The notes under the pieces were generated by a model. It worked only from the letters and a program-made list of their open reading frames with translations, was not told the DNA's origin and did no database searches. This document shows positions 196-26,693 of a stretch of 64,000 nt of DNA, one piece after another. Both the position numbers and the translations under genes were made by a program. Every line of letters begins with the position of its first letter. The stretch's first letter is position 1. The DNA is from a virus, in IMG/VR virus record IMGVR_UViG_3300005532_000007, positions 1 to 64,000 of that record; one strand, written 5' to 3'.

Positions 196-204
196 CCTTT
201 GCGT

Positions 205-777
205 ATGACCGAAGATCGGCCGCACTGGAAGGACGAGCCGCGCACCCGCATGGGCCGGTGGGCCAAGTCCCTGGAGTCCGCCGAACGCGACGCCGAGGCC
301 GCTCGGCTGTGGGGCCGCGGCTGGACGTACGAGAAGATCTCCGACCATCTCGACTACGGCGACAAGGCCAACGCGTGGCGCGCCGTCCGCGCGGCACTCA
401 AGGCTGCTCAGAGCGAGGGCGTCGAAGAAGCACGCAAGGCGCAGATCGCTCTGATCGACGAGATGATCCGGCATGCCCTCGACGTCGCCGAAACCGATCA
501 CGTCATGGTCAGCCACGGCAAGATCATCAAGGATGACGATGGGAACCCGCTGTTCGATGACGGCCCGCGGCTTGCGGCGATCGGCCGAGTTGAGCAGCTG
601 ATCGCGCGCAAGGCGGCGCTGACCGGCACAGCAATGCCTACACGATCGAAGGTCGAATTCGGCCGTGACGACGAACGCGAGACCGAGCTGCTCGCCGAGA
701 TAGAACGGCTGCGCCGCGAACGCGCCGCTGGCGCGGACACAGAGCCGGACGGCGATGAGCGCAGCGAGCGGCCCTGA
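205..777 (+). CDS. Terminase small subunit (HTH)
   Basis: HTH-like LWGRGWTYEKISDHLDY; directly upstream of and overlapping the large terminase gene. Confidence 0.75.
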   Translation: MTEDRPHWKDEPRTRMGRWAKSLESAERDAEAARLWGRGWTYEKISDHLDYGDKANAWRAVRAALKAAQSEGVEEARKAQIALIDEMIRHALDVAETDHVMVSHGKIIKDDDGNPLFDDGPRLAAIGRVEQLIARKAALTGTAMPTRSKVEFGRDDERETELLAEIERLRRERAAGADTEPDGDERSERP

Positions 778-2686
778 CCGCGGCCCGTACCTCGAGGTCC
801 AGCGCGCCGCGCTGCGCGAGCTCGGCCACAGCGACACGGACATCGACCTCGCGGCGCTCGAACGCGAACTGGCCGACCTGCGGCTGTGGCGCCGCGCCCG
901 GGAACGCGACCGCGCCGCGCTCGAGGAGATCGCCGACCGGGAGAACGAGTTCGCGGCGCTGCTCGCGAACGCCGCCGGGTTCAACAAGCTGGTGCGCGAC
1001 GACCCGGACGTGGACGGGTACCTGCTACGGCCGGACGGTAGCGAGCACACCAGCGAGAGTTTCGACCTCACGGACTGGCTGACCGAACGCCTCGCGCCGT
1101 TCGGCGGCCTCGACTCCCCGCTGCTGCGCCGGCCCGAGGGACGCCGGGCGCTGACCGAGTGCGACCCGCTGCTGTTCGCCCTCGTCTATCTGCCGCACCA
1201 CCTCAAAACGGTGCTCCCTGGGCAGGTCGGCGAGGGCGTGTTCTCCTTCGCGGACTTCCACCTGGACGTGTGCCGGCGCGCCCGGCCCAGCGTGCAGCCC
1301 GTGCTGGAGGTGCGCGGACCCCGGGACTGCTACGTCGCCCCCCGTCACACCGGCAAAACCACCTGGCACTTCCTGCTGCTGGCCATGTGGGAGGCCGCGT
1401 TCCTGCACGAGAGCTTCATCGCCGCGTTCGCGGACTCCGCCACCCAGGCGGAGATCCACCTGATGAGCTTCCGCAACGAGCTGGAGAACAACGACCTGCT
1501 GCGCGAGGACTTCCCCGCGCTGTGCAAACCCGCGGTGAAACTGCGCGCCAGGGTCGACGACGCGGGCAACGTCCACGAGTCCGGGCGGGCGCTGAAAGAC
1601 AACGAGGCGATGTACATCGCCTCCAGCGGATTCATCTTCGCCGCCCGCGGCGTGGACACTAAGACATTGGGATTGAAGGTCGAGGAGAAACGCCCCAGCA
1701 AGCTGCTGCTCGACGACGTGGAACCGGACGAATCCAACTACAGCCAGGAGCAGTGCGCCAAACGGCTGCGCTCCATCATCGACGCGATCCTGCCGCTGAA
1801 CCTGCGCGCCCGCGTCGTGCTGGTCGGCACCGTGGTCATGCCCGGGTCGATCATCCACCAGCTCGTCGAGTCCGAGCGGTATCCGGAGGAGCAGGAGGAC
1901 AATCCGGACACTGAGTGGATCGCCGAACAGGCCATCGCGGTGCACTACTACGCGCCGATCATCGACACGTTCGACCCGGTCACCGGCGAGGCCGGGCAGC
2001 GTTCCATCTGGCCGGCGAAGTGGCCGCTGGAGTTCCTGCTCTCGATCTGCACTACCCGCGACTTCCTGAAGAACTTCGCCAACGACCCGATGGGCAGCCA
2101 GGGCACGTACTGGACGCCGGAGGACTTCGGCACCAACCGCGTCTCAGCGGAGCTGCAGGCGCAGACCCTCGCCTCCATCACGCACCAGCTGCTCGCGATC
2201 GACCCGGCGGTGACCACGAAGAAGAAGAGCGACTACACCGCGTTCGTCGTCGTCGGGTACAGCGCGGTGACCCGGCGGTGCGTGGTGCGCGACGCGTGGG
2301 CGGTGCGGGTGCAGCCGGGCGCGGCGATGTGCGCGTTCATCACGCGAGTGCTGGCGCAGTACCCGCAGATCCGCGGCCTGGTGATCGAGTCGAATCAGGG
2401 CGGCGAGACGTGGCTCGCGATCCTCGGGGATCTCGGGTTGCCGATCGAGACGGTGTGGCACAGCGAACCGAAGGAGGTGCGCGCCGCCCGACTGCTGGAC
2501 AAGTACCAGCGCGGCGGCCGGTGCTTCCATGAACGGCCGCTGCGCGAGCTCGAGCAGAACATGGTGGTCTTCCCGCGCGGCCGCAACGACGACCTGGTAG
2601 ACGGCGCCGGCACCGGGGTGGAGTGGTTCCTGGACCGACCGGCGCAGTCGCGGCGCGGCGGCGGGAAGAGCGTCGGGTACGTGTGA
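755..2686 (+). CDS. terL: Terminase large subunit
   Basis: Walker A APRHTGKTT, Walker B LLLDDVE, nuclease motifs AIDPA..SDYTA, IESNQGG, NDDLVDG. Confidence 0.93.
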   Translation: MSAASGPDRGPYLEVQRAALRELGHSDTDIDLAALERELADLRLWRRARERDRAALEEIADRENEFAALLANAAGFNKLVRDDPDVDGYLLRPDGSEHTSESFDLTDWLTERLAPFGGLDSPLLRRPEGRRALTECDPLLFALVYLPHHLKTVLPGQVGEGVFSFADFHLDVCRRARPSVQPVLEVRGPRDCYVAPRHTGKTTWHFLLLAMWEAAFLHESFIAAFADSATQAEIHLMSFRNELENNDLLREDFPALCKPAVKLRARVDDAGNVHESGRALKDNEAMYIASSGFIFAARGVDTKTLGLKVEEKRPSKLLLDDVEPDESNYSQEQCAKRLRSIIDAILPLNLRARVVLVGTVVMPGSIIHQLVESERYPEEQEDNPDTEWIAEQAIAVHYYAPIIDTFDPVTGEAGQRSIWPAKWPLEFLLSICTTRDFLKNFANDPMGSQGTYWTPEDFGTNRVSAELQAQTLASITHQLLAIDPAVTTKKKSDYTAFVVVGYSAVTRRCVVRDAWAVRVQPGAAMCAFITRVLAQYPQIRGLVIESNQGGETWLAILGDLGLPIETVWHSEPKEVRAARLLDKYQRGGRCFHERPLRELEQNMVVFPRGRNDDLVDGAGTGVEWFLDRPAQSRRGGGKSVGYV

Positions 2687-2736
2687 CAAGCCCTGAGCCT
2701 TACTATGTCCCCTAAATAGTGAGGGAGGCTCAGCAA

Positions 2737-4371
2737 ATGGCGCTCGCGTGGCCACCCACCCAGGCAGGGGCCGACCCGACCCGGTTCGTCGACGACCTCG
2801 ACGAAGGCCTCAAAGCCATGGCGCACGCCGACCGCGCCTACCGCAAAGCCCAGGTCTACTACGAGGGCTCCTTCCCCGAGGTGTTCGCCTCCCCCCGCCT
2901 GCGCGCCGCGCTCGCCCGCACCGGCGTGGACTTCCGCCTGAACTTCGCCAAGACGCCCGTGGACGCGGTGGTCTCCCGCCTGAAGATCAACGCCATCACC
3001 TCGCCCCTGGACGGCGTGCAGGACACGATCGCGCAGATCTGGAAAGACAACCAGCTCGACCTGTTCGAGATCCTCTCCTTCCGGCGGGCCTGCGAGTTCG
3101 GGGACTCCTACCTGCTGGTGTGGCCCGACGCGAACATCCCCTCAGGGGTGCGGGTGTACCTGAACAACCCGCGCGTGATGCGGATCCTGTACGACGCCGA
3201 GAACGAGATCGAGAAACGCTTCGCGATCAAAATGTGGAAGGACGGCAACGCCCACAAGGCGTTCCTGTACTACGCGGACCGCATCGAGAAGTACATCACC
3301 GCCGACGGCAAGGACGGCTCGCAACGCGACGACTGGGGCGAATACAGCGACCCGGAGGACGACGGCTGGCCGTTGGACAACCCCTTCGGCGAAGTACCGG
3401 TCTTCCATCTGCGCACCGATTTCCAGTATGGCGTCCCGGAGCACTCCGGGGCGTACGGGCCGCAGAACCTCGTGCACAAGCTGGTGATGGGACACGCCGC
3501 AGGCATCGACTACCACGCGCTGCCGCAGCGCTGGGCGCTGACCGAGACCGGCACGAACGCCAATGACTTCGCGGTGGGCGACGAGGACGAATACGCCTAC
3601 TCGCTCGATACCGGAGCTACCGGCAACGCCGATGACGGGCGGGCGCAACTGCGCTCCGAACCCGGGTCGGTGTGGTTCCTGGAGAACATCAAGGCACTGG
3701 GTGAGTTCGGGACCGGTGACCCGTCGGTGTTCATCGCGCCGATGGAGTTCTACGTGCGCGCCATGGCGCAGATCACCACCACCCCGATCCACTACTTCGA
3801 CACCATCGGGCAGACCCCGTCCGGTGAATCGCTGCGCACCATGGAAGCGCCGTTCGTGGAGAAGGTCGAAAACCGGCAGCTGCTGTTCGGCGGGGCGTGG
3901 CGCGACGCGATGGATTTCGCGCTCAAATGCCTCGGGGTCGATCAGGCGCAGATCGACGTGCACTGGAACCCGTGCTCGTCCGTGTCCGACATGCAGGCGT
4001 GGCAGACCGCGAAGATGAAGAACGACCTCGGTGTGCCGGCCAAGCAGCTGCTGTTGGAGGCCGGGTACAGCGAGGAGCAGGTCGACGCGTGGCTGGCCGA
4101 GGGCGCTCAGTCCCTCGCGCAGCAGATCGAGACCCTCAACGCGCTCGGCCTCGCGGCGCAGGGCCTGGCGGTCGCGGTTCAGCTAGGCGTGGTGGACGAG
4201 GCCGGGGTCAAGGCGCTGCTCGCGCACATGCTGCCGCAGATGCTCGGCATGGGCCCGGACGGCGAGCCGATGCCGCTCGGGTCGGCGGGCAAGGTCCCGG
4301 CGCTGACCGGGTCCGGCAGCATCGAAGACACGCAGGGCGTGGAGACCGCCGGTGACGGCGGCGATCAGTGA
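2737..4371 (+). CDS. Portal protein (SPP1 gp6-like)
   Basis: YYEG, NFAKTPVD, FGDSYLLVW, NPFGEVPVFH, PSGESLR motifs; follows terL; GGAGG RBS before ATG 2737. Confidence 0.92.
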   Translation: MALAWPPTQAGADPTRFVDDLDEGLKAMAHADRAYRKAQVYYEGSFPEVFASPRLRAALARTGVDFRLNFAKTPVDAVVSRLKINAITSPLDGVQDTIAQIWKDNQLDLFEILSFRRACEFGDSYLLVWPDANIPSGVRVYLNNPRVMRILYDAENEIEKRFAIKMWKDGNAHKAFLYYADRIEKYITADGKDGSQRDDWGEYSDPEDDGWPLDNPFGEVPVFHLRTDFQYGVPEHSGAYGPQNLVHKLVMGHAAGIDYHALPQRWALTETGTNANDFAVGDEDEYAYSLDTGATGNADDGRAQLRSEPGSVWFLENIKALGEFGTGDPSVFIAPMEFYVRAMAQITTTPIHYFDTIGQTPSGESLRTMEAPFVEKVENRQLLFGGAWRDAMDFALKCLGVDQAQIDVHWNPCSSVSDMQAWQTAKMKNDLGVPAKQLLLEAGYSEEQVDAWLAEGAQSLAQQIETLNALGLAAQGLAVAVQLGVVDEAGVKALLAHMLPQMLGMGPDGEPMPLGSAGKVPALTGSGSIEDTQGVETAGDGGDQ

Positions 4372-5411
4372 GCTCCCCCACGCTCGAGCAGCAGCCTGTC
4401 TCGGCGCAGACCGCGCAGTCGTGGGAGCACGCCGATCAGGTCGCCGCTTTCTCGGCCACGGCCGCCGCGCAGCTGACCGGCCGCGCCCCCGAGATGCTCA
4501 AGGCGCTGCTCGCGGCCGCGCTGGTGAAGTGGAGCGCGGAGGGCCTGGAGCACGCCGGTGACGGCCTGGTCGCGATGACGCGGCTGTTCGACTTCCGCAC
4601 CTGGTTCGCGGCCCGGCTCGCCGAGATCGGGGCGGCGCTGCCGGATCCGCAGCGCCTGATCCCCGCGCTGGAGCAGGCGGTCGAGCTGGGGGCGCGCCAG
4701 GCGGTCGCCGAGGCCGGGGCGGACATGCCGCCGCGTACCGCGCTGACGCTGGATCAAGGTTCGCTCGGTGAGCTGGCGTCGCTACGTTCGAAGCGGCAGA
4801 AGCTCGCGCAGGACGCGCAGGCCATGGCGGCCCAGGCCCGTACCCGCGCCCAGGTGCAGGCCGCGTTCGCGGTGGCGCAGCGGCAGGTGACGGTGACGCG
4901 CGGCACGGTCGAGGATCTGGTGCACGAGGCGGCGCATTCCGGGATCGATCAGGTCGCGCTCGCCGGGGGCTGGCAGGAGATCTGGATCGGCGAGCGCAAC
5001 GCGTGTGCGCGCTGCCAGAGCTTTCAGGGCGCGATCGCGGATGCGCCGGATTTCCTGTTCCGTCCGGTGCTGCTGGGCGCGTGGCTGCGCCCGGAGGATC
5101 ACATGGGCGTGACGATCGATCTGCATCCGCACGGCCGGTGCCGCGGGCGGCTGGTGCGCGCGCAGCAGGCGCGGGTGAGCAGCCTGATGGACCCCGGGTC
5201 GCTGGCCAGCGTGCTGCGGCGGGAGGCGCGCCGTTCGATCGTGCTCGGGCTGGCGTTGCCGTCCGAGTCGCAGGCGCTGCGCAAACGCGCGGCGCAGGAG
5301 CTGCTGGACCGGCGCGGTGGCGCGGGTCTGCCGAAGACGGTTGAGCAGCGGGCCCGGCAGCGTATCAAGGCGGGCGAGTTCCGCACGCGTGTCGATGTCA
5401 CAGCGAGATAG
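4368..5411 (+). CDS. Minor head / head morphogenesis protein (MuF-like)
   Basis: W..ERNACARC and LHPHGRCR motifs; lies between portal and scaffold. Confidence 0.75.
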   Translation: MSSPTLEQQPVSAQTAQSWEHADQVAAFSATAAAQLTGRAPEMLKALLAAALVKWSAEGLEHAGDGLVAMTRLFDFRTWFAARLAEIGAALPDPQRLIPALEQAVELGARQAVAEAGADMPPRTALTLDQGSLGELASLRSKRQKLAQDAQAMAAQARTRAQVQAAFAVAQRQVTVTRGTVEDLVHEAAHSGIDQVALAGGWQEIWIGERNACARCQSFQGAIADAPDFLFRPVLLGAWLRPEDHMGVTIDLHPHGRCRGRLVRAQQARVSSLMDPGSLASVLRREARRSIVLGLALPSESQALRKRAAQELLDRRGGAGLPKTVEQRARQRIKAGEFRTRVDVTAR

Positions 5412-5425
5412 AAAGCAGTCCCCTC

Positions 5426-6295
5426 ATGAGTGATGTGTTGGTGCTCGGTTACCGGGCGGATGGTCGTGCGGTGCATTGGATCCGCGGCGGCGCGGAAGGC
5501 GACGGCGGCGCCGCGGCGGGTGACGGGAACGCCGGGGCGGGCGCGGGCGACGGGAACCCCGCCGGCAGCGGTGGCGCGTCCGGACAGGCAGGACAAGGCG
5601 CCCAGAGCGGCAGCGGAGCGCAGCGCGCCGGCGCGGGCGACGGCGAGGAGATCGAGTACAACGAGGAGAACTTCAAGAAGCTGATCGACGACCTGAACCG
5701 CGAGCGCACCGAACGCGCCGAGCTAGAGGCGAAGCACCAGCAGGAGAAGCACTCCCTCTCCAGCGAGGCGAAGAAGTACCGGCTGCGGGCGCGGTCGCTC
5801 GCTGACATGCTCGGCGACGAGGCCACGGGTAAGCCCGGGCCGAAGGCTGCGGCGAAGGGCGCCCAGGGCCAGCAGCAGGATGCGGGGCCGGATCCGGAGG
5901 TGGCGCGGCTCGCCGCGCAGCTGGAGGAGACACGGGCGCGCATGCTTGCCTCGGAGGCGCAGGCGGAGCTGCTGCGCGCGGAGGCGAACCCGAAGCATGT
6001 GCAGCGGCTCGCGCGGATGCTGGATCTGAACGCGGACGGCCGGGAGGATGTGGCGTCGCTCGCGGAGCAGATCGCGGAGCTGAAGGCGGATATGCCGGAG
6101 CTGTTCGGCACCCCCGCCGCAGCGACGGCCGGAGCGGGCAACGGCGCCGGGACGGGCGCACGGGTGCTGCGCGCCGCCCCGGCCGTGGCCGGGAGAGGCG
6201 CCGCAGGCCGGGGCGGCAACGAGGCGGCTCAACCGCCCAAGAGCGCCAACATCCTGGCTGATCGGCTGCTCGGCCGGAGCGAACCGTCCGTTTAG
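5426..6295 (+). CDS. Capsid scaffolding protein
   Basis: Gly-rich N-terminus, coiled coil (EAKKYRLR), IAELKADMPELF motif; upstream of the capsid gene. Confidence 0.85.
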   Translation: MSDVLVLGYRADGRAVHWIRGGAEGDGGAAAGDGNAGAGAGDGNPAGSGGASGQAGQGAQSGSGAQRAGAGDGEEIEYNEENFKKLIDDLNRERTERAELEAKHQQEKHSLSSEAKKYRLRARSLADMLGDEATGKPGPKAAAKGAQGQQQDAGPDPEVARLAAQLEETRARMLASEAQAELLRAEANPKHVQRLARMLDLNADGREDVASLAEQIAELKADMPELFGTPAAATAGAGNGAGTGARVLRAAPAVAGRGAAGRGGNEAAQPPKSANILADRLLGRSEPSV

Positions 6296-6516
6296 GCCGC
6301 CAGCCGCGCCATCACCGCACTGATCGCGGCATCCACCGAGGCAATCACGCGTCCCGCGCCACAGGTGCATCCCGTGGCGCGCGGACCCAACTCGTCTGCC
6401 TCGCCGTCCGGATCCTCGTCCAGCCCTACCGCGCCGCACAGGTCGTGATGCACCGCGGTGCGCGCATCCACGAGATCGCGCCACTCCTGCGCGAGACCCG
6501 GCGGCAGAACCTCCAC
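6292..6516 (-). CDS. Small antisense hypothetical protein with His/Cys motif
   Basis: 74-aa frame VEVLPPGLAQEW..HHDLC..GCTC filling the scaffold-capsid gap; protein-like composition. Confidence 0.45.
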   Translation of the reverse strand: MEVLPPGLAQEWRDLVDARTAVHHDLCGAVGLDEDPDGEADELGPRATGCTCGAGRVIASVDAAISAVMARLAA

Positions 6517-6630
6517 GCCACATGTGTACCGTGCCGCGCCGACACGCGCGAGAGGTGCGCTTGCCCACGCAGCCATATGTGGCGCAAACTGTGAGGCAGC
6601 ATCAGGATCAAGCCAGGTCGCTCCCGGCGA

Positions 6631-6753
6631 TCCCGGTGCTTTCGAAGCCCTGAGGGCTTTCGCACGACCCGTACGCGGCCGAGCCGCACCCGCAGAAAAC
6701 TCCCACCGCAGCGCACGGCGCCCTGTGGCGCGCCCCGTACGCCAGCACCGGGA
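6631..6753 (+). ncRNA. Candidate structured RNA in the capsid gene leader
   Basis: Perfect 10-bp closing stem TCCCGGTGCT/AGCACCGGGA enclosing three further stems. Confidence 0.5.
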
Positions 6754-6824
6754 CTTACTCCTGTGACGGCTTCCTGCCCCTGTGCCCACATCCGGGGGCG
6801 GCTTCGGAAAGCGATGCCCTCAAG

Positions 6825-7850
6825 ATGCGTATCCTCCTGCCCGGCGCGGTGCTGGGCTACCGCAGCAACGGCGCCCCCATCGTCCTGATCGCAGGTGGCG
6901 CGACCGACAACTTCGACTCCTGGATCCCCGTCGAGTACTCCGCGGACGTGATCCAGAAGGTGAAGCAGACCTCTGCCGTCGAGGCGTACGGCCAGGAGGT
7001 CATGATGTCCACCAACAGCCGCAGCACGCCGCGCGACTCGGGTGCGGACATCGACCACACCGCCAAGGGCGGCTCGTACAACGAGGACACCAACACCAAC
7101 GACCAGGTCACGCTCACCGCCCAGAAGTTCACCCGGGCGTTCCGCATCGCGGAAGAGGACCTGAATGACTCCCTGGCGAACGTGATCAACTCCAAGCAGA
7201 ACGCGTGGGGTACCGCGTACGCGAAGAAGTTCGACAACGCGTGCCTCGGCGTCACCGCGAGCAAGACCACGACCGGCATGGCGTACGACTCGCTGTACTA
7301 CCTGCTCACGCAGAACGACACCGCGACCGGGTACACCGCGAACAGCAACATCACCAACTCGGCCGCGTCGCCGTCGTACGCGGAGTACAACACCTCCCTG
7401 GGCCTGTACGAGGCCGGCGACTACTTCGACGAGGGCGAAACCCTCGTGATTGCGCACCCCGACTTCAAGCAGTCCCTGCGCGGCGTGCTCGACTCGCAGA
7501 ACCGCCCGATCTTCCAGGAGTCCACCGTCGGGTTCCCCGGCGGCGGCCAGGGCGCCACCCCCGCGCGGATCTTCGGCTACCCGATCAAGTGGAGCCTCGG
7601 TGCGCGCCTGTCGGCGACCCCGACGGCCAAGCCCACCGGCCACCCGATCATGGTGTTCTGCAACCCCATGTACATGCTCGTCGGCAAGCGCATCACCAAC
7701 CCGACGAACCCTCAGGGCACCCCGGAATTCCAGGTCATCCCGCCCAACATCAGCTTGTCGGACGAGGCGGTGCTCAAGGGCCGCGCCCGTCGCGCATTCG
7801 CCCCGGGCGTCGAGCAGGCGTTCTCCATCCTCGTCGACACCAGCCGCTGA
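6825..7850 (+). CDS. Major capsid protein (HK97 fold)
   Basis: WIPVEYSADVIQ, LTAQKF, IAEEDLNDS, DSQNRPIF, IFGYPI motifs. Confidence 0.93.
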   Translation: MRILLPGAVLGYRSNGAPIVLIAGGATDNFDSWIPVEYSADVIQKVKQTSAVEAYGQEVMMSTNSRSTPRDSGADIDHTAKGGSYNEDTNTNDQVTLTAQKFTRAFRIAEEDLNDSLANVINSKQNAWGTAYAKKFDNACLGVTASKTTTGMAYDSLYYLLTQNDTATGYTANSNITNSAASPSYAEYNTSLGLYEAGDYFDEGETLVIAHPDFKQSLRGVLDSQNRPIFQESTVGFPGGGQGATPARIFGYPIKWSLGARLSATPTAKPTGHPIMVFCNPMYMLVGKRITNPTNPQGTPEFQVIPPNISLSDEAVLKGRARRAFAPGVEQAFSILVDTSR

Positions 7851-9092: not shown

Positions 9093-12000
9093 ATGGTGTC
9101 CGTTTCCCTCGGCGCCTCATCCAAGCTGGACAAGTCCGGCGGCACCCTGACCGGGCCGCTGATCCTCGCGCGCGACCCGCAGCTGCCGCTGGAGGCCGCC
9201 ACCCGGCAGTGGGTGCTGGCCAGCGGCGGCGGGATCCCCCCGAGCACGGTCACGACCAAGGGCGACCTGATCGCCGCGACCGGGGCATCTGCGGTCACCC
9301 GGTTCGGGGTCGGCGCAGACGGCCAGGTGCTCACCGCGGCCTCTGGGCAGCCGACCGGACTGCAATGGGCGTCGCTGCCGTCGATCCCCGGCGCCGCCGC
9401 GAGCGTCGTGGCCGAAACCGGATACGGACAGTCCTCCGCGATCGGCGTGCTGACCAGTTACGCGCGCGAAGACCACACCCACGGCTCGCCGTTGCTGGCC
9501 TCCACCGCGCCGGCCACCACGTTGGGGATCGGGCAAGCCGCCGCGACCGGTACCGGCACAGTGCCGGCGCGCTCGGATCATGTCCACCCGCTCGCGGCCG
9601 CCGGCCTACCCGGCGGTTCCGCGGTCGGGGACACGGCCGCGACCGGCGCAGCGACCACGTTCGCCGCCAGCGACCACAGGCACGGACGCGAGAGCTTCGG
9701 CGCGGTCACCGCCCTCACCGCGTTCGGCACCGCGAGCAGCAACGGGATCAGCGCCTCGCCCGCGCGCGCGGACCACGTCCACGGCGCGCCCGCGCTGCCC
9801 GCCGCGAGCACCACCAGCGCGGGGATCGTGCAACTGGACGGCACCGCCACCGATATCGCCGCGCTCGGCGCTCAGGCGGCGGGCAGCGTCGGCAAGGCCG
9901 CGGACGCCGGGCATGTGCATCCGACCACTGGAGTGGTCCTGACCTCCAGCCTTCCGCTGTCGATCGCGCAGGGCGGCAGTGGCCAGACCACGCAGCAGGC
10001 AGCGATCAACGCGCTCACCGGAGCACAGACCGCGGGCCGCTATCTGCGCTCCGACGGCACGAACGCGGCACTGTCCACGATCCAGGCCGGTGATGTCCCG
10101 ACACTGAACCAGAACACCACGGGGACCGCTGCCGGACTGTCTGCGACGCTCGCCATCGGCTCCGGCGGCACGGGCCAGACCTCGCAACAGGCCGCGATCA
10201 ATGCCCTGACGGGCGTGCAGAGCGCCGGGCGCTACCTGAGGTCCGACGGCACGAATGCCGCTCTCGCGTCGATTCAGGCCGCCGATGTTCCGACGCTGAA
10301 TCAGAACACGACCGGAACGGCCGCTGGCCTGTCGGCGACCCTGGCCATCGCGTCCGGGGGAACCGGGCAGACCACGGCCACCGCCGCCGCCAACGCGCTC
10401 ACCAACACGGTATGGGTCAAACCGCCGTCCGGGGACAGCACCGGGGCCACCGACCAGGCGAACATCAACGCCGCGATCGCCGCGCTCCCCGCCGGCGGCG
10501 GCAGGGTGCAGCTGCAGGCCGGTACATACATCGTGCCCGCCCCGGCGTCCGCGTCCAGCGGCTGCATCAACATGAGCGTCAACAACTCCACGCTCGCGGG
10601 CATGGGCATCGGCGTCACCGTCATCCAGCTCGCCGCCGGGTCCACCGGCGTGACCGGGATCGTGCGCACGCCCTCGGGCGTGTCGAACTCGAAGATCACC
10701 TTCCGTGATTTCACGATCGACGGCAACAAGGCCGCGCAGACCGGCAACCCGACGATCATCGGGTTCTTCTGCGGCGTCACCCCCAACAGCGCGCTCACCG
10801 ACACGGACATCACGGTGGTCCGCGTCGAGGCGATGAACTGCGTCGGCTACGGCTTCGACCCGCACGAGCGCACCACGCGCCTGCTCATGATCGGCTGCGT
10901 CTCGCACGACAACGGATCGGACGGGGCGCACGACGGATTCACCCTCGACGCCCAGTACGACAGCACGCTGATCGGGTGCGTCGCCTACAACAACGGCCGC
11001 CACGGGTTCAACCTCGTCACGGCCAGCACCCGTGTGCGGCTGATCGGCTGCGAGTCCTACGGCAACACCGGCGCCGGGTACGTGATGCAGAACGGCGCGA
11101 AATACAACACGCTGACCGGCTGCACCGCCTACAACAACACCCTCGAGGGCGTCCTGATCAACGGAGTGGCGCAGAGCGGACAGCAGGACAACACCCCCGG
11201 CTCCGACAACACCGTCACCGGATGCACCATCGCCGGCAGCGGCACCCACGGCATCCACCTGGTCGGGGCGCTGCGGGCCACCGTCACCAGTAACACGATC
11301 CTGGACTCCTCGCAGACCACCACCAACACCTCCAACCAGATCTACCTGGACGAATCCGGGACCACGTACAGCACGTACTGCACGATCACCGGCAACAACC
11401 TCAACGTGACCGGTGTTGCGGCCACACCGAAATACGGGGTGCTGGAGAAGACCAGCAACGAGGACTTCAACCTCGTCACCAGCAACAAGAGCTACGGCGC
11501 GACGACCGGGCAGATCAGCCTCGCGGGCACCACCAGCAAAGCGATGGCCGCGCACAACGGCACCGTCGGCGAGCACCCGACCAGCTTCGCGTACAGCATG
11601 TTCGGGCCCTCCTACCACGGTCTGAGCGACTGGACCTACGACCCCGTCGGCATCGGGTCCACCACCAGCGCCATCACCAGCGGCACCGTGTATTTCGCCG
11701 CGGTCACCCCGCAAGCATCCGGCACCCTCACCAACATCAACCTGTACCTGGGCACCCAGGGCTCGACGTTGACCGCCGGGCAGTCGCTGGTCGGCCTGTA
11801 CTCCCTCTCCGGCGGGGTCGCCACCCTGCTCTCTTCCAGCGCCGACCAGTCCACGAACTGGTCCACCGCGGGCAACGCCAACAAGATCAGCACCGTCGCG
11901 TTGACCACCCCGCAGGCCGTCACCGCGGGCACCACCTACCTGGTCGGCATCCTGTCGGTGGGCACCACACCCCCGTCGTTCGGGCGCGGCGGCAGCTCCA

Positions 12001-12155
12001 CCGCCTCACCCCCCGACCTCGGCCTGTCCAAGAGCACCCCGCTGCGTTACGCGACGCACGTCACGCTCTCGCAGACCGCGCTGCCCGCGTCCGTGACCCT
12101 GAACACCGACGTCACCGCCACCAGCGCACTGTCCCACTGGATCGGGCTGAGCTGA
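9093..12155 (+). CDS. Fibre/spike protein with right-handed beta-helix (putative depolymerase)
   Basis: DHxH repeats, GGTG fibre repeats, DQANINAAI..GGRVQLQAGTY pectate-lyase-like start, Asn-ladder repeats. Confidence 0.85.
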   Translation: MVSVSLGASSKLDKSGGTLTGPLILARDPQLPLEAATRQWVLASGGGIPPSTVTTKGDLIAATGASAVTRFGVGADGQVLTAASGQPTGLQWASLPSIPGAAASVVAETGYGQSSAIGVLTSYAREDHTHGSPLLASTAPATTLGIGQAAATGTGTVPARSDHVHPLAAAGLPGGSAVGDTAATGAATTFAASDHRHGRESFGAVTALTAFGTASSNGISASPARADHVHGAPALPAASTTSAGIVQLDGTATDIAALGAQAAGSVGKAADAGHVHPTTGVVLTSSLPLSIAQGGSGQTTQQAAINALTGAQTAGRYLRSDGTNAALSTIQAGDVPTLNQNTTGTAAGLSATLAIGSGGTGQTSQQAAINALTGVQSAGRYLRSDGTNAALASIQAADVPTLNQNTTGTAAGLSATLAIASGGTGQTTATAAANALTNTVWVKPPSGDSTGATDQANINAAIAALPAGGGRVQLQAGTYIVPAPASASSGCINMSVNNSTLAGMGIGVTVIQLAAGSTGVTGIVRTPSGVSNSKITFRDFTIDGNKAAQTGNPTIIGFFCGVTPNSALTDTDITVVRVEAMNCVGYGFDPHERTTRLLMIGCVSHDNGSDGAHDGFTLDAQYDSTLIGCVAYNNGRHGFNLVTASTRVRLIGCESYGNTGAGYVMQNGAKYNTLTGCTAYNNTLEGVLINGVAQSGQQDNTPGSDNTVTGCTIAGSGTHGIHLVGALRATVTSNTILDSSQTTTNTSNQIYLDESGTTYSTYCTITGNNLNVTGVAATPKYGVLEKTSNEDFNLVTSNKSYGATTGQISLAGTTSKAMAAHNGTVGEHPTSFAYSMFGPSYHGLSDWTYDPVGIGSTTSAITSGTVYFAAVTPQASGTLTNINLYLGTQGSTLTAGQSLVGLYSLSGGVATLLSSSADQSTNWSTAGNANKISTVALTTPQAVTAGTTYLVGILSVGTTPPSFGRGGSSTASPPDLGLSKSTPLRYATHVTLSQTALPASVTLNTDVTATSALSHWIGLS
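9957..10380 (+). repeat. Tandem 192-bp (64-aa) duplication inside the fibre gene
   Basis: RYLRSDGTNAAL..DVPTLNQNTTGTAAGLSAT occurs twice; ccgacggcac at 10051 and 10243. Confidence 0.85.
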
Positions 12156-24636: not shown

Positions 24637-25463
24637 CGCAGTATCCGACGCCGGTCGAGCAGGCGCTGCCGAAACTGATCCGCGACCTGAGGGCGCGGGT
24701 GACATCGCTTGAGCAGCGCACCAACGCGCTCGGTTCGGCGGCCGGCACCGGGGCGCTCTCCCTGCCCGCGGTCACGGTGACGGGGCCGAACGGGACGCTG
24801 ACGCTGGCGCAGAACCCGTCGCTGCCTTCCCCCGGCACCAGCAGCCCGGCGCTGATCCTGAGCGACGGGCAGGGGTCCAGCGCGTACGCGCCGCAGCTGT
24901 ACAGCCACGAGGTCACTGCGGGCAGTAATCAGCCGTTCGAGGAGCTGGTGGCGGCGGGCCCGCAGTCCTCGGCGGACACGCAACTGTCCGCGGCGAGCAT
25001 GGTGCTGGACGGCGGGGGGACGGGGGTGAACGCGGCGCGCGGCGCGCTCAAGTGGGCGCAGAACGTGGGCGCCGCGGCGCTGGCCGCTGTGGGGTGGGAT
25101 CAGTGGGGTGTCACCCTGGCGCAGCCCGCGTCCGGGTCGGCCGCCTCCGGTGGGGCGCAGGTGACCGGGTCGGCGGTGCAGAACGATGTCGCGCCGTCCG
25201 GTGGTTCCAGCGCGAAGTTCGTGCGCATGGGCGTGTTGTCCGGGACGACGGACGGATCGGGGAACCTGGCGGTCACCGGCCTGGCGCTGGGTTTCACCCC
25301 GTCCGGGGTGGTGGTGATGCGCAACGGCGGCACAGGGCCGGCCGCGGTGGCGTGCAAGTCGGCGTCGGGCCTGTCGTCGTCGGGGTTCTCAACCTATTGG
25401 GACAACGCCGGGGTGGCTTACGCATCCAGTGCGGTCGCGGGCTGGTTCATCGTGTTCGGCTGA
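24633..25463 (+). CDS. Minor tail protein / tail fibre
   Basis: N-terminal LRARVTSLEQR coiled coil, C-terminal LGFTP..GF..WFIVFG domain. Confidence 0.7.
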   Translation: MTQYPTPVEQALPKLIRDLRARVTSLEQRTNALGSAAGTGALSLPAVTVTGPNGTLTLAQNPSLPSPGTSSPALILSDGQGSSAYAPQLYSHEVTAGSNQPFEELVAAGPQSSADTQLSAASMVLDGGGTGVNAARGALKWAQNVGAAALAAVGWDQWGVTLAQPASGSAASGGAQVTGSAVQNDVAPSGGSSAKFVRMGVLSGTTDGSGNLAVTGLALGFTPSGVVVMRNGGTGPAAVACKSASGLSSSGFSTYWDNAGVAYASSAVAGWFIVFG

Positions 25464-25879
25464 GCGGGCGGCACGGTGATGGCTTCCTCGGTCGCGGCGC
25501 CGTGGTGGATGCGCCAGGCGCGCAGCACCGGCGCGGCTGGGTCTTTGAGCGACACGATCAGGTAGAGGGTCTGCGGGTCGGCGGCGTGCAGGATGTCCAC
25601 GGCGGAGGGCCGCGCTTCGGTGGCGGTGTGGGAGTGCACGATCGCGAGGGGGTCTTCGCCGCGCTGGTCCATGTCCTGGTAGGCGGCGAGCTGTTGGGCG
25701 GGGTCGAACTGGTAGAGGTAGGGGCGTGCGGGCTCGTGGGCGGCGTTGCGCATGGGGATGTACCGGGTGGGGGTGTGGCTGCCGGGTGGTCCGGCGAGGA
25801 TGCCGCAGGCTTCGTCGGGTTTCGCGGCGAGGGTGTGCGCGAGTATTTCGTGGCGCAGGGCCTGGGTGAGGGTCAGCAC
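25418..25879 (-). CDS. JAB/MPN+ (M67) metallopeptidase, Mec/CysO-cysteine-peptidase-like
   Basis: PDEACGILAG and intact JAMM motif HSHTATEARPSAVD; YLIVSL..LRAWRI; GTG start overlaps the upstream stop. Confidence 0.92.
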   Translation of the reverse strand: MLTLTQALRHEILAHTLAAKPDEACGILAGPPGSHTPTRYIPMRNAAHEPARPYLYQFDPAQQLAAYQDMDQRGEDPLAIVHSHTATEARPSAVDILHAADPQTLYLIVSLKDPAAPVLRAWRIHHGAATEEAITVPPAQPNTMNQPATALDA

Positions 25880-26112
25880 GGTGTTTCCGGGTCCGGGTAG
25901 ACGATGCGGGTCGCGCCGCCGTGTCCGTTGATCGCGATTAGGTCGTCGAGGCTGTCCCAGTGGACGGTGGATGGCCGGGCGCCTCGCCAGCGGACGGTGA
26001 TGGTGCCGTCGGGCCATTGCACGCCGTCGGCGACGTGCCCGGTGCCGGAGATCCCGCTCACGTCCACGTCCCGCTCGAGGCGGAACAACCGCGGCGCTGG
26101 TCCCCCGCTCAT
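25873..26112 (-). CDS. Conserved small actinophage protein
   Basis: RDVDVSGISGTG.VADGVQW.DG..RW..GHGG.T motif. Confidence 0.75.
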   Translation of the reverse strand: MSGGPAPRLFRLERDVDVSGISGTGHVADGVQWPDGTITVRWRGARPSTVHWDSLDDLIAINGHGGATRIVYPDPETPC

Positions 26113-26693
26113 CGGGCGGTCGCGTGTTCGTCAAGGAATCGGGCGATCACTCGGTTGTGTCGGGCGTCCTGCAGAGCGTTGTGGTGCCCGTCGATCTGCG
26201 GTGGCATGTCGTCATCGCTTAGTCCGAGGCGCGCGGCTTCCTGCTTGAGGTCGTTGGTCCACATCGGGATGCCGTCGGGCAGGTCGATCATCCGGCCGAA
26301 CAGCTGCGCTAGTACCACGTGGTCGTAGGCGCCGTACCAGGCCCACAGCTGCGGGCTCGGGTGGCTAAGGATGAATCTGCTCACGTCGTGGGCGATCTGC
26401 GCGCGGGTCGCCACCTCGTCGGCGCCCCAGTTGAACAGGCGCTTGACGTGTCGGTACGCGGATGCGCCTTCGCTCATGGACGCGAGGAGCATCATCCGGG
26501 CATCGCCGCGCACCTGGGGCAGCGACGGCCACACGTTGGCCATCAGCCAGTCGTTCTTGGCGAAGGCCTTGCGGTCGAACTCAGAGCTGACGGCGTAGTA
26601 CTCGGCACCGGTTTCGGCGACGATGCCGATCGAGACGAGGTCGATCGTCTTGCCGTCTTCGATGAACTCGCAGTCGTAGAAGAGCCTTGTCAT
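26109..26693 (-). CDS. 3'-5' exoribonuclease, RNase AS/DUF5051-like (DEDDh)
   Basis: FYDCEFIEDGKTIDLVSIG, LWAWYGAYDHV, HNALQDAR. Confidence 0.9.
   Translation of the reverse strand: MTRLFYDCEFIEDGKTIDLVSIGIVAETGAEYYAVSSEFDRKAFAKNDWLMANVWPSLPQVRGDARMMLLASMSEGASAYRHVKRLFNWGADEVATRAQIAHDVSRFILSHPSPQLWAWYGAYDHVVLAQLFGRMIDLPDGIPMWTNDLKQEAARLGLSDDDMPPQIDGHHNALQDARHNRVIARFLDEHATAR

What the first reader, a model, noticed from the sequence alone, without database searches (positions are those of the whole stretch)
5441..6902. Scaffold and major capsid protein share an N-terminal leader ending in Gly-Gly-Ala
Seen: scaffold residues 6-23 VLGYRADGRAVHWIRGGA (5441-5494) and capsid residues 9-26 VLGYRSNGAPIVLIAGGA (6849-6902) align without gaps (VLGYRxxGxx[VI]xxIxGGA), although the proteins are otherwise unrelated. 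No prohead protease gene is recognisable in the head module. Established: staphylococcal phage 80alpha scaffold and capsid share an N-terminal motif removed by the host protease Prp; ubiquitin-like sulfur carriers (CysO/MoaD/ThiS) end in a hydrophobic strand plus GG. Inference: this is a cleavable maturation tag imitating a ubiquitin-like C-terminus, cut at GG/A.
Basis: partly seen in the sequence, partly recalled or inferred. Interest (0 to 1): 0.8.

Follow-up and report, generated by a model that had tools for sequence, protein, structure and literature searches.

The report
Gly-Gly head-protein leaders, phage JAB protease
This soil phage starts both its head-scaffold and its coat protein with the same short hairpin tag ending in Gly-Gly, and it carries a copy of a host enzyme that cuts after Gly-Gly, so a new but still unproven way of maturing a phage head is likely.

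Summary
Scaffold (5426-6295) and HK97-fold capsid (6825-7850) of this 88-kb actinophage share an N-terminal hairpin ending Gly-Gly-Ala. The strict motif occurs only at these two places in six frames of the genome.

- **Module boundary:** 65 of 120 listed capsid homologues carry the leader. Leaderless ones start Met-Ala at the residue after Gly-Gly.
- **Spread:** the leader is mainly a scaffold feature. 233 cluster representatives matched at E<=0.001, and Gly-Gly was kept in 96 of 116 single-copy hits.
- **Candidate protease:** no classical prohead protease was found. The phage encodes a Mec-type JAB/JAMM metalloprotease (25418-25879, minus strand).
- **Co-occurrence:** JAB is present in 15 of 21 records whose capsid has the leader and in 0 of 15 without. 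Shared ancestry confounds this.
- **Position:** in several relatives the JAB gene lies between the scaffold and capsid genes.
- **Complex model:** it places the Gly-Gly at the zinc site (0.88 against best control 0.02).
- **Experimental parallel:** published data on mycobacteriophage Patience fit cutting after Gly-Gly.

Cleavage is not shown for this phage. Six leader-bearing records and all seven scaffold-only records lack a JAB. The scan has noted the same theme before on other DNA (at least eight notes).

The parts
5426..6295 (+). Scaffolding protein gene (289 aa): leader, Gly/Ala/Asp-rich spacer, coiled coil, basic C-terminus
   Evidence: ORF. PF06810 Phage_scaffold E=2.6e-5, 24.7 bits, below the cut-off of 35. 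It lies between the MuF-like and capsid genes. Related scaffolds reach 58 bits.
5426..5491 (+). Scaffold leader, residues 1-22. The hairpin core is residues 6-20, Gly-Gly is residues 21-22 (5486-5491), and the predicted cut is before Ala23 (5492).
   Evidence: The capsid-only leader profile gives E=0.012. Relatives' scaffolds carry a closer copy, E about 1e-6.
6825..7850 (+). Major capsid protein gene (341 aa), HK97 fold
   Evidence: PF05065 47.2 bits, PF25209 30.7 bits, phrog_10. 570 homologues at E<=0.001. AlphaFold2 mean pLDDT 78.9.
6825..6899 (+). Capsid leader, residues 1-25. Strands are residues 9-12 and 18-20, Gly-Gly is residues 24-25 (6894-6899), and the predicted cut is before Ala26 (6900).
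   Evidence: G24 is invariant and A26 at least 90% conserved in 44 capsids. In the AlphaFold2 model the hairpin block 11-20 has pLDDT 86 and residues 24-45 are below 50. The complex model contacts residues 19-30.
25418..25879 (-). Stand-alone Mec-type JAB/JAMM zinc metalloprotease gene (153 aa), the candidate leader peptidase
   Evidence: PF14464 Prok-JAB E=1.3e-24, 86.7 bits, cut-off 25. It is the only match in the genome. E23, H82, H84, S92 and D95 are invariant in 14 phage JABs. Nearest solved chains are 2kks and JAMM1 5lda/5ld9.
4368..5411 (+). MuF-like minor head protein gene (context, head module)
   Evidence: No Pfam hit of its own. 39% identical over 152 residues (E=1e-20) to the L061 protein, which matches PF04233 weakly.
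2719..4371 (+). Portal protein gene (context)
   Evidence: PF05133 54.9 bits, phrog_104.
755..2686 (+). Terminase large subunit gene (context)
   Evidence: phrog_38 E=2.3e-59.

Best explanation
The two N-terminal stretches are copies of one portable leader. It is a two-strand beta-hairpin (hydrophobic-hydrophobic-G-aromatic-x-x-x-G-x-P-hydrophobic) followed by a short hydrophobic strand that ends A-G-G.

The leader is native to the scaffolding proteins of a large group of actinobacterial phages. In one capsid lineage, which includes this phage, it was also placed on the coat protein.

Proposed mechanism:
1. Both proteins are made as precursors.
2. The leader acts during procapsid assembly. Its exact role is unknown.
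3. The peptide bond after Gly-Gly is then hydrolysed by a Mec-type JAMM zinc peptidase. Here that is the phage's own JAB (25418-25879). In JAB-less relatives it is possibly the host's Mec, the enzyme that cuts after the Gly-Gly tail of the sulfur carrier CysO.
4. This leaves mature proteins that begin with Ala, as leaderless homologues do after loss of their Met.

Shown here: the shared homologous leader, its exact module boundary, conservation of Gly-Gly, the intact JAB gene and its position in the head modules of relatives.

Inferred, not shown: that the bond is cut, that JAB or Mec does it, and what the leader does before it is cut.
For: 1. **Module boundary.** 65 of the 120 listed capsid homologues carry the leader. 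The other 55 do not, and most of those start M-A-R-N at the residue that follows Gly-Gly in the leader forms. Leaderless scaffolds likewise start M-A then an acidic run, where leader forms read G-G-A then an acidic run.

2. **Residues around the junction.** Position -2 is Gly in 44 of 44 capsids, -1 is G, A or S, and +1 is Ala in at least 90%. Of the 116 single-copy hits among the best 150 of a 1.84-billion-protein profile search, 96 have G-G and 13 have G-A at -2/-1. The median position of the +1 residue is 31.

3. **The enzyme.** The phage encodes an intact Prok-JAB with a complete JAMM motif. The genome has no ThiS/CysO-like protein for it to act on and no other protease family I searched for.

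4. **Origin of the enzyme.** Phage JABs score about 190 bits against host Mec genes. In Saccharothrix the host copy sits in a mec-cysO-cysM cluster. Twelve host CysO tails end L-P-A-V-A-G-G, against the leader's I-x-x-I-A-G-G.

5. **Co-occurrence.** A JAB is present in 15 of 21 records whose capsid has the leader and in 0 of 15 without.

6. **Gene position.**
   - In L057 the JAB starts 3 bases after the scaffold stop and precedes the capsid gene.
   - In L059 and L061 it lies between scaffold and capsid.
   - In L032 it is immediately upstream of the capsid.
   - In prophage L092 it is 1.4 kb upstream of the capsid, and in L093 about 4 kb upstream.

7. **Complex model.** The chains were JAB, Zn and capsid residues 1-60.
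   - Score 0.88 against a best of three controls of 0.02. That mark was reached by 58 of 80 solved complexes and 2 of 110 mismatched pairs.
   - The runs agree in at least 64% of their contacts, and the partner's pLDDT is at least 53.
   - JAB residues E23, C25, 54-58, H82, H84 and S92-D95 touch capsid residues 19-30, with G24 next to H82 and D95.
   - The calibration counts hold only roughly, because my own alignments and a riding zinc were used.

8. **Fold of the leader.** AlphaFold2 gives a confident hairpin (residues 11-20, pLDDT 86) followed by a flexible stretch that starts at G24.

9. **Experimental parallel, checked here.**
   - Patience gp19, annotated 'protease', is a Prok-JAB (E=6.8e-10).
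   - Its gp21 and capsid gp23 both carry P-I-F-G-G-T.
   - PMC4324244 (passages) reports that the N-terminal-most gp21 peptides start at residue 35, after a glycine.
   - PMC11965321 (passages) built the capsid model from Thr20, the residue after G-G.
Against: - **No direct data.** No proteomic or N-terminal data exist for this phage or its close relatives.
- **Leader without JAB.** 6 of 21 capsid-leader records have no JAB: G002 (37% complete), G006 (90%), G013 (75%), G018 (100%), G020 (97%) and the complete cultured phage Rooney. Among the 9 cultured phages of the Rooney group, tblastn finds a JAB only in Dryad. The head modules of L063 and L025 hold no extra gene.
- **Scaffold-only phages.** All 7 records with a leader on the scaffold only lack a JAB. 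The leader therefore works without a phage cutter, and a host Mec role is only assumed.
- **Shared ancestry.** On the capsid tree the leader-bearing capsids form essentially one clade plus Rooney. Only 2-3 independent contrasts exist, so no test can reach significance.
- **JAB position in this genome.** Here the JAB is 18.5 kb from the capsid gene, on the other strand, next to a tail-fibre-like gene.
- **Complex model from memory.** JAMM peptidases bound to ubiquitin-like tails have been solved, so the pass may reflect likeness to known complexes (caveat printed).
- **A common hairpin.** The hairpin core also occurs as an internal tandem repeat, without Gly-Gly, in unrelated proteins (26 of the best 150 hits had more than one copy). 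It is a common small structural unit.
- **Conflicting Patience data.** PMC4324244 also states that the Patience capsid is cut between residues 82 and 83, which does not fit the Thr20 start.
- **80alpha precedent.** Its scaffold leader is needed for assembly, but its cleavage is dispensable.
Confidence: 0.5

Rival explanations
1. The leader is a permanent assembly or interaction hairpin that is never removed. It might mediate contacts between scaffold and coat or portal, folding, or regulation. In that case the phage JAB has an unrelated job, such as stripping ubiquitin-like tags laid down by Bil or CBASS-type defences, or acting as a metabolic Mec copy.
For: - The leader sits on scaffolds in 58 of 113 loci. 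That includes 7 whole records with no JAB and a leaderless capsid.
- Six capsid-leader records lack a JAB.
- The same hairpin core is a repeat unit in unrelated proteins that lack Gly-Gly.
- In 80alpha the scaffold leader is essential for assembly while its cleavage is dispensable (PMC5744158).
- In this genome the JAB lies beside tail genes, not head genes.
Against: - Small residues are strictly kept at -2, -1 and +1, and the boundary coincides exactly with the Met-Ala start of leaderless homologues.
- The JAB sits between scaffold and capsid genes in L057, L059 and L061, and directly before the capsid gene in L032.
- The complex model scores 0.88 against a best control of 0.02, with Gly-Gly at the zinc site (see its caveats).
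- Patience proteins start right after G-G.
- A coat protein that kept 25-45 extra residues on its N-arm in every one of several hundred copies would be unusual (established knowledge of HK97-fold capsids; inference).
Confidence: 0.27
2. The leader is cut off, but by a protease other than a JAMM enzyme. That could be an unrecognised phage protein, such as the MuF-like protein, or an unrelated host peptidase.
For: - Many leader-bearing phages have no JAB.
- The 347-residue MuF-like protein has no family assignment for most of its length.
- The 80alpha precedent shows that a host protease can do this job.
Against: - None of the six protease families searched is present in the genome.
- A Mec-type JAB is present in 51 of 61 sampled host-class genomes, 45 of 55 without the unpublished ones, so a JAMM enzyme is normally at hand.
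- Cutting after Gly-Gly is the defining specificity of this JAMM group (established knowledge).
Confidence: 0.15
3. The resemblance is chance or a composition effect in a GC-rich genome.
For: 42 of 63,903 ORF N-terminus pairs in this genome reach the same raw identity.
Against: - The capsid-only profile finds scaffold N-termini across dozens of loci.
- 233 cluster representatives match at E<=0.001 in 1.84 billion proteins.
- The motif is unique to these two sites in the genome.
Confidence: 0.01

Closest known systems
Staphylococcus phage 80alpha: capsid and scaffold leaders removed by host protease Prp (PMC5744158; abstract and passages read)
   Same: Two otherwise unrelated head proteins share a short N-terminal leader. 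The leader resembles the natural substrate of a cellular protease. The mature proteins start with Ala. No classical prohead protease is present.
   Different: - Prp is a cysteine protease that cuts between Phe and Ala of an L27-like motif. No Peptidase_Prp was found here.
- The candidate here is a zinc JAMM peptidase that cuts after Gly-Gly, and the phage often carries its own copy.
- Cleavage is proven for 80alpha and not for this phage.
Mec (JAMM peptidase) with CysO/CysM of actinobacterial cysteine synthesis, and archaeal desampylases (JAMM1; PDB 5lda, 5ld9)
   Same: The phage protein has the same domain and a complete JAMM motif. Host mec genes score about 190 bits against the phage profile and sit beside cysO and cysM. 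The bond cut lies after a C-terminal-type Gly-Gly. That Mec releases cysteine from CysO is recalled knowledge, not from a call.
   Different: - The phage has no CysO, ThiS or CysM gene.
- The proposed substrate is an N-terminal leader of 22-45 residues, not a beta-grasp protein.
- Phage JABs sit on long branches relative to host Mec.
- The NCBIfam desampylase score of 77.9 is below its cut-off of 130.
Mycobacteriophage Patience gp19 (annotated 'protease'), gp21 and gp23 (PMC4324244 and PMC11965321; passages read)
   Same: A JAB gene lies in the head module. A shared leader ending G-G sits on a scaffold-like protein and on the capsid. Published N-termini lie right after G-G.
   Different: - The capsid family differs (no Pfam hit), and so does the leader sequence. 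My leader profile does not match it.
- The passages I read do not link gp19 to cutting after Gly-Gly.
- PMC4324244 also reports a capsid cut at residues 82/83.
Classical prohead proteases (HK97 S78, T4 S77, lambda/ClpP-S49 types) that remove delta domains or scaffolds
   Same: They play the same part in the head assembly pathway. In L057 and L061 the JAB occupies the usual protease position, near the scaffold and capsid genes.
   Different: They are serine proteases of the herpesvirus-assemblin or ClpP folds. None is present here.
Lambda gpK-type tail assembly proteins with an MPN/JAB domain
   Same: They are phage-encoded JAB domains. They appear as weak tblastn hits (E 1e-4 to 1e-3, 28-33% identity).
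   Different: They lie in the tail module and are fused to or next to an NlpC/P60 domain. Here the link is to head proteins.

Membership tests
Prok-JAB / JAMM zinc metalloprotease (PF14464), Mec type | Domain match above the curated cut-off | tested here: met
   86.7 bits against a cut-off of 25; 87.1 bits in the genome scan.
Prok-JAB / JAMM zinc metalloprotease (PF14464), Mec type | Catalytic motif Glu ... His-x-His-x7-Ser-x2-Asp | tested here: met
   E23, H82, H84, S92 and D95 are invariant in the alignment of 14 phage JABs.
Prok-JAB / JAMM zinc metalloprotease (PF14464), Mec type | Neighbourhood with cysO (ThiS-like) and cysM | tested here: not met
   In the phage the neighbours are a tail-fibre-like ORF and an Rv2179c-like exoribonuclease, and the genome has no ThiS-family match. 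The feature is met for the host copy in L129.
Prok-JAB / JAMM zinc metalloprotease (PF14464), Mec type | Hydrolysis of the bond after a Gly-Gly tail | not testable with these tools
   Only a complex model is available: 0.88 against a best control of 0.02.
80alpha-type leader processing (shared capsid/scaffold leader cut by a cellular-type protease) | The same N-terminal leader on capsid and scaffold | tested here: met
80alpha-type leader processing (shared capsid/scaffold leader cut by a cellular-type protease) | The leader resembles the protease's cellular substrate | tested here: inconclusive
   Only the last seven residues resemble the CysO tail (hydrophobic-x-x-hydrophobic-A-G-G).
80alpha-type leader processing (shared capsid/scaffold leader cut by a cellular-type protease) | Prp protease and an L27-like Phe-Ala site | tested here: not met
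   No PF04327 match in the phage, and the site here is Gly-Gly then Ala. Host genomes were not searched for Prp.
80alpha-type leader processing (shared capsid/scaffold leader cut by a cellular-type protease) | Mature proteins lack the leader | not testable with these tools
   This needs virion proteomics.
HK97-fold major capsid protein (PF05065) | Domain match above the cut-off and the HK97 fold | tested here: met
   47.2 bits against 24.2; AlphaFold2 pTM 0.75 (no fold search was run).
Phage scaffolding protein (PF06810) | Domain match above the cut-off | tested here: inconclusive
   24.7 bits against a cut-off of 35 for the window protein. The L061 homologue reaches 58.2 bits. 23 of 86 leader-bearing representatives match at E<=0.001.
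Ubiquitin-like beta-grasp protein (ThiS/MoaD/CysO) | Beta-grasp fold of about 65 or more residues that ends in Gly-Gly | tested here: not met
   The leader is 22-25 residues here and at most about 45 in relatives. The model shows only two strands. It is a tail look-alike, not a member.
Double-glycine leader peptides cut by C39 peptidase transporters | C39 peptidase partner | tested here: not met
   No PF03412 match in the phage genome. Hosts were not searched.

The most novel reading that the evidence does not exclude
A JAMM zinc metalloprotease captured from the host's CysO/Mec sulfur-carrier pathway serves as the head-maturation protease of a large group of actinobacterial phages. It removes a portable hairpin-plus-Gly-Gly leader, which imitates the CysO tail, from scaffold and coat proteins. 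Phages without their own copy borrow the host's Mec. This would add a new enzyme class, and the first metalloprotease, to phage head maturation. It would also be a second, independent case of substrate mimicry of a cellular processing enzyme, after 80alpha and Prp.
Probability: 0.45. Interest if true: 0.8.

Novelty: new variant of a known kind. Interest (0 to 1): 0.7.

Why it matters
**Enzyme class.** All well-studied tailed-phage head proteases are serine proteases of two folds, and 80alpha adds one host cysteine protease. A deubiquitinase-type zinc peptidase would widen the known chemistry of capsid maturation.

**Annotation.** It would explain why many actinophage head modules seem to lack a protease. 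It would also give annotators a simple rule: a hairpin leader ending in Gly-Gly on scaffold or capsid, plus a small JAB gene.

**Testability.** The leader is short, portable and sharply bounded. Leader fusions and cultured relatives can test the idea directly: Dryad has a JAB, and Rooney and Gibson do not.

**Open question.** It bears on whether phages exploit the nearly universal actinobacterial Mec enzyme.

I found no paper that links a JAB enzyme to capsid maturation in four full-text searches. Only Creative Commons PMC and bioRxiv texts were searched.

Tried and rejected
I reached neighbourhoods of distant capsid homologues through the search for related loci with an alignment instead.
- **Scaffold tblastn** against cultured phages found nothing. 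Scaffolds are too divergent, so the leader profile was used instead.
- **Polyprotein idea.** Very long stop-free frames around some scaffold leaders suggested MuF-scaffold fusions. I rejected this: the upstream parts are Arg/Pro-rich out-of-frame readings of GC-rich DNA, and each scaffold has its own start.
- **JAB remnant in the 530-base scaffold-capsid gap.** tblastn with 14 JABs gave only noise (best E=0.016).
- **Statistical proof of the JAB-leader link.** The independent-pairs test found only 2-3 contrasts, so it cannot reach significance.
- **Counting captures of JAB from hosts.** The tree is unresolved. The host/phage split has 40% support, and one origin is not excluded.
- **Leader profile against Patience.** There was no meaningful match, so Patience is a parallel variant and not the same leader family.
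- **Structure papers** on actinophage capsids (10.1101/2022.09.09.507160 and PMC7150772, passages only) held nothing on this capsid family.
- **Supplements closed.** Table S1 of PMC4324244 lists peptides and could settle the N-terminus of Patience gp23. I could not see it.


Full report
**What is there**

The window is the first 64 kb of a single-contig, 88,172-base virus record with direct terminal repeats. Its left end is a head module:

| Gene | Coordinates |
|---|---|
| Terminase large subunit | 755-2686 |
| SPP1-type portal | 2719-4371 |
| MuF-like protein | 4368-5411 |
| Scaffolding protein | 5426-6295 |
| Non-coding gap (530 bases) | 6296-6824 |
| HK97-fold major capsid protein | 6825-7850 |

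These assignments rest.

They align without gaps at 10 of 18 residues. The strict motif occurs only at these two N-termini in all six frames of the whole genome.

Raw identity of this size is not rare among the junk ORFs of a GC-rich genome: 42 of 63,903 N-terminus pairs reach it. The case for homology therefore rests on profiles. A model built from capsid leaders alone finds the window's scaffold at E=0.012, with the next unrelated ORF at 0.54. It finds the scaffolds of close relatives at about 1e-6. Codon-level comparison with relatives shows mostly third-position changes, so both leaders are translated.

**The leader is a separable module that ends at Gly-Gly**

Of the 120 best capsid homologues listed (570 at E<=0.001), 65 carry the leader and 55 do not. 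Most leaderless proteins begin M-A-R-N, aligned to the A-R/T-D/N that follows Gly-Gly in the leader forms.

The cultured phages KimJongPhill and OscarSo and the satellite Mulchroom are leaderless. In KimJongPhill there are stop codons just upstream of the start. Leaderless scaffolds start M-A then an acidic run, where leader scaffolds read G-G-A/S then an acidic run.

In 44 aligned leader capsids the Gly at -2 is invariant, -1 is G, A or S, and +1 is Ala in at least 90%. AlphaFold2 models residues 9-12 and 18-20 as a hairpin, with block 11-20 at pLDDT 86. A low-confidence stretch follows from G24 to residue 45.

**The leader belongs first of all to scaffolds**

I ran the capsid-leader profile on six-frame ORFs of 113 related loci. 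At 9 bits or more it hit the ORF just upstream of the capsid in 58 loci. Some loci are overlapping cuts of one contig. 31 loci had no hit.

Many Streptomyces prophages and proviruses have the leader on the scaffold only, while their capsids are leaderless. Scaffolds that the profile missed in L028, L029 and L033 turned out to carry divergent copies.

A mixed profile (A4, 47 leaders) was searched against 1.84 billion representative proteins. It gave 233 hits at E<=0.001. I re-scanned the best 150 locally:
- 116 have one copy, 26 have more than one, and 8 have none at the domain threshold.
- Of the 116, 96 have G-G and 13 have G-A at -2/-1.
- The +1 residue sits at a median position of 31.
- 88 are 150-330 residues long.

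Of 86 representatives of scaffold length, 23 match PF06810. So the refutation test 'Gly-Gly not conserved in homologues' is passed. On the capsid tree the leader-bearing capsids form essentially one clade plus the Rooney group. This suggests, by inference, that the leader was copied from scaffold to capsid.

**A candidate cutter**

None of the six protease families I searched for is present in the genome: S78, ClpP, S49, S77, Prp and C39. I confirmed the following:
- It matches Prok-JAB at 86.7 bits against a cut-off of 25.
- Its JAMM motif is complete.
- It is the only such gene in the genome.
- No ThiS/CysO-like gene accompanies it.

Its nearest solved relatives are small stand-alone JAMM proteins, including archaeal JAMM1.

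Host genomes carry a very similar gene. It appears in 5 of 5 prophage hosts and in 51 of 61 sampled genomes of that class, or 45 of 55 without the unpublished genomes. In Saccharothrix it lies in a mec-cysO-cysM cluster. Twelve host CysO proteins end in a D-G turn, a hydrophobic strand and A-G-G. The leader's last seven residues follow the same pattern. That is the full extent of the 'ubiquitin-like' mimicry.

**Link between JAB and leader**

Across 35 whole records plus the own genome, a JAB is present in 15 of 21 records with a capsid leader. It is present in 0 of 15 without one; of those 15, 7 have a scaffold-only leader and 8 have none.

This association is not independent of ancestry. Only 2-3 independent contrasts exist, and the JAB tree is unresolved.

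Position is more telling:
- In L057 the JAB starts three bases after the scaffold stop and precedes the capsid gene.
- In L059 and L061 it lies between scaffold and capsid, after a 176-residue ORF of unknown family.
- In L032 it is directly upstream of the capsid.
- In prophages L092 and L093 it is 1.4 kb and about 4 kb upstream of the capsid.

In the window and its nearest relatives it is instead about 17-18 kb away on the opposite strand.

**Complex model**

The job used JAB (14-row alignment), zinc and capsid residues 1-60 (44-row alignment). It scored 0.88, 0.87 and 0.88 in three runs against a best control of 0.02. That mark was reached by 58 of 80 solved complexes and 2 of 110 mismatched pairs. 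Contact agreement between runs is at least 64%, and the partner's pLDDT is at least 53.

The catalytic Glu, both His residues and the Ser-Asp segment touch capsid residues 19-30, with G24 next to H82 and D95.

Two caveats apply. My own alignments and a riding zinc differ from the calibration. And JAMM enzymes bound to ubiquitin-like tails have been solved, so part of the pass may come from likeness to those complexes.

**An experimental parallel**

I followed a lead from earlier notes (e1-5963375 and e1-5963384) and checked mycobacteriophage Patience myself:
- gp19, annotated 'protease', is a Prok-JAB.
- gp21 and the capsid gp23 share a leader ending P-I-F-G-G, followed by Thr at residues 35 and 20 respectively.
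- PMC4324244 (passages) reports that the N-terminal-most gp21 peptides start at residue 35, after a glycine. It says that neither trypsin nor translation initiation explains this.
- PMC11965321 (passages) built the capsid model from Thr20.

The first paper also says the capsid is cut between residues 82 and 83, which conflicts with this. Neither passage connects gp19 with cutting after Gly-Gly. Patience has a different capsid family and leader sequence, so it is a parallel case, not the same system.

**What speaks against**

- Cleavage is not shown here.
- Six records with a capsid leader lack a JAB, three of them 97-100% complete. Eight of the nine cultured phages of the Rooney group also lack one.
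- All scaffold-only records lack a JAB. Either the host Mec serves them, or the leader is not cut there.
- In 80alpha the scaffold leader is needed for assembly but its cleavage is not.
- The hairpin core also occurs as an internal repeat in unrelated proteins.

**Verdict**

| Reading | Weight |
|---|---|
| Precursor leader cut after Gly-Gly by a Mec-type JAMM peptidase, phage-encoded here | about 0.5 |
| Uncleaved assembly hairpin with an unrelated JAB | about 0.27 |
| Cut by a different protease | about 0.15 |

The scan has noted the same theme on other DNA at least eight times. Four literature searches found no paper that links a JAB enzyme to head maturation.

Noticed in passing
proteins P0131, P0146, P0175, P0188, P0198, P0206, P0211, P0214, P0219 and others: Large proteins of 400-1260 residues with no Pfam family carry 3-5 copies of a unit G-E-G-S-R-G-G followed by the same hairpin core (I-I-G-H-T-K-S-G-K-P-I-Y). 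Here a Gly-Gly precedes the hairpin rather than following it. Whether these are cut polyproteins, packaged phage proteins or something else is unknown.
   Followed up: partly
proteins P0129, P0133, P0158, P0276: Small secreted-looking proteins with a PG_binding_1 domain end in 3-6 tandem Cys-flanked copies of the hairpin core (C-x-E-G-T-I-I-G-Y-x-x-x-G-x-P-I-Y-C). P0130 combines such repeats with a TrbI conjugation domain. The hairpin is therefore a widespread mini-repeat.
   Followed up: partly
L061:7929-8459 and L059:3635-4165: A conserved 176-residue ORF sits between the scaffold and JAB genes in two related phages. It has no Pfam or NCBIfam match. Its role in the head module is unknown.
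   Followed up: partly
window 6296-6824: The non-coding gap between the scaffold and capsid genes is unusually long, at 530 bases. The minus-strand ORF 6292-6789 has no family hit, and there is no JAB remnant.
   Followed up: partly
window 26109-26693 (minus strand): The gene next to the JAB encodes an Rv2179c-like 3'-5' exoribonuclease (PF16473, E=2.9e-14).
   Followed up: no
window 199-777: The ORF upstream of the terminase matches phrog_645, which is labelled 'Rnase E' (E=2.5e-19). By its position it is more likely a terminase small subunit.
   Followed up: no
window 9093-12155: A 1020-residue tail-fibre-like protein has repeated Gly/Ala/Thr-rich units and what looks by eye like a beta-helix region. 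It follows the head genes directly, with no obvious tail-tube or tape-measure genes in between.
   Followed up: no
L001 (Streptomyces phage Rooney) 4897-5778: The N-terminus of Rooney's scaffold has a stretched, divergent version of the leader: G-Y-E, then an insertion, then P-V-F-Y-A-D-G-G, then an acidic run. Its capsid keeps the canonical leader.
   Followed up: no
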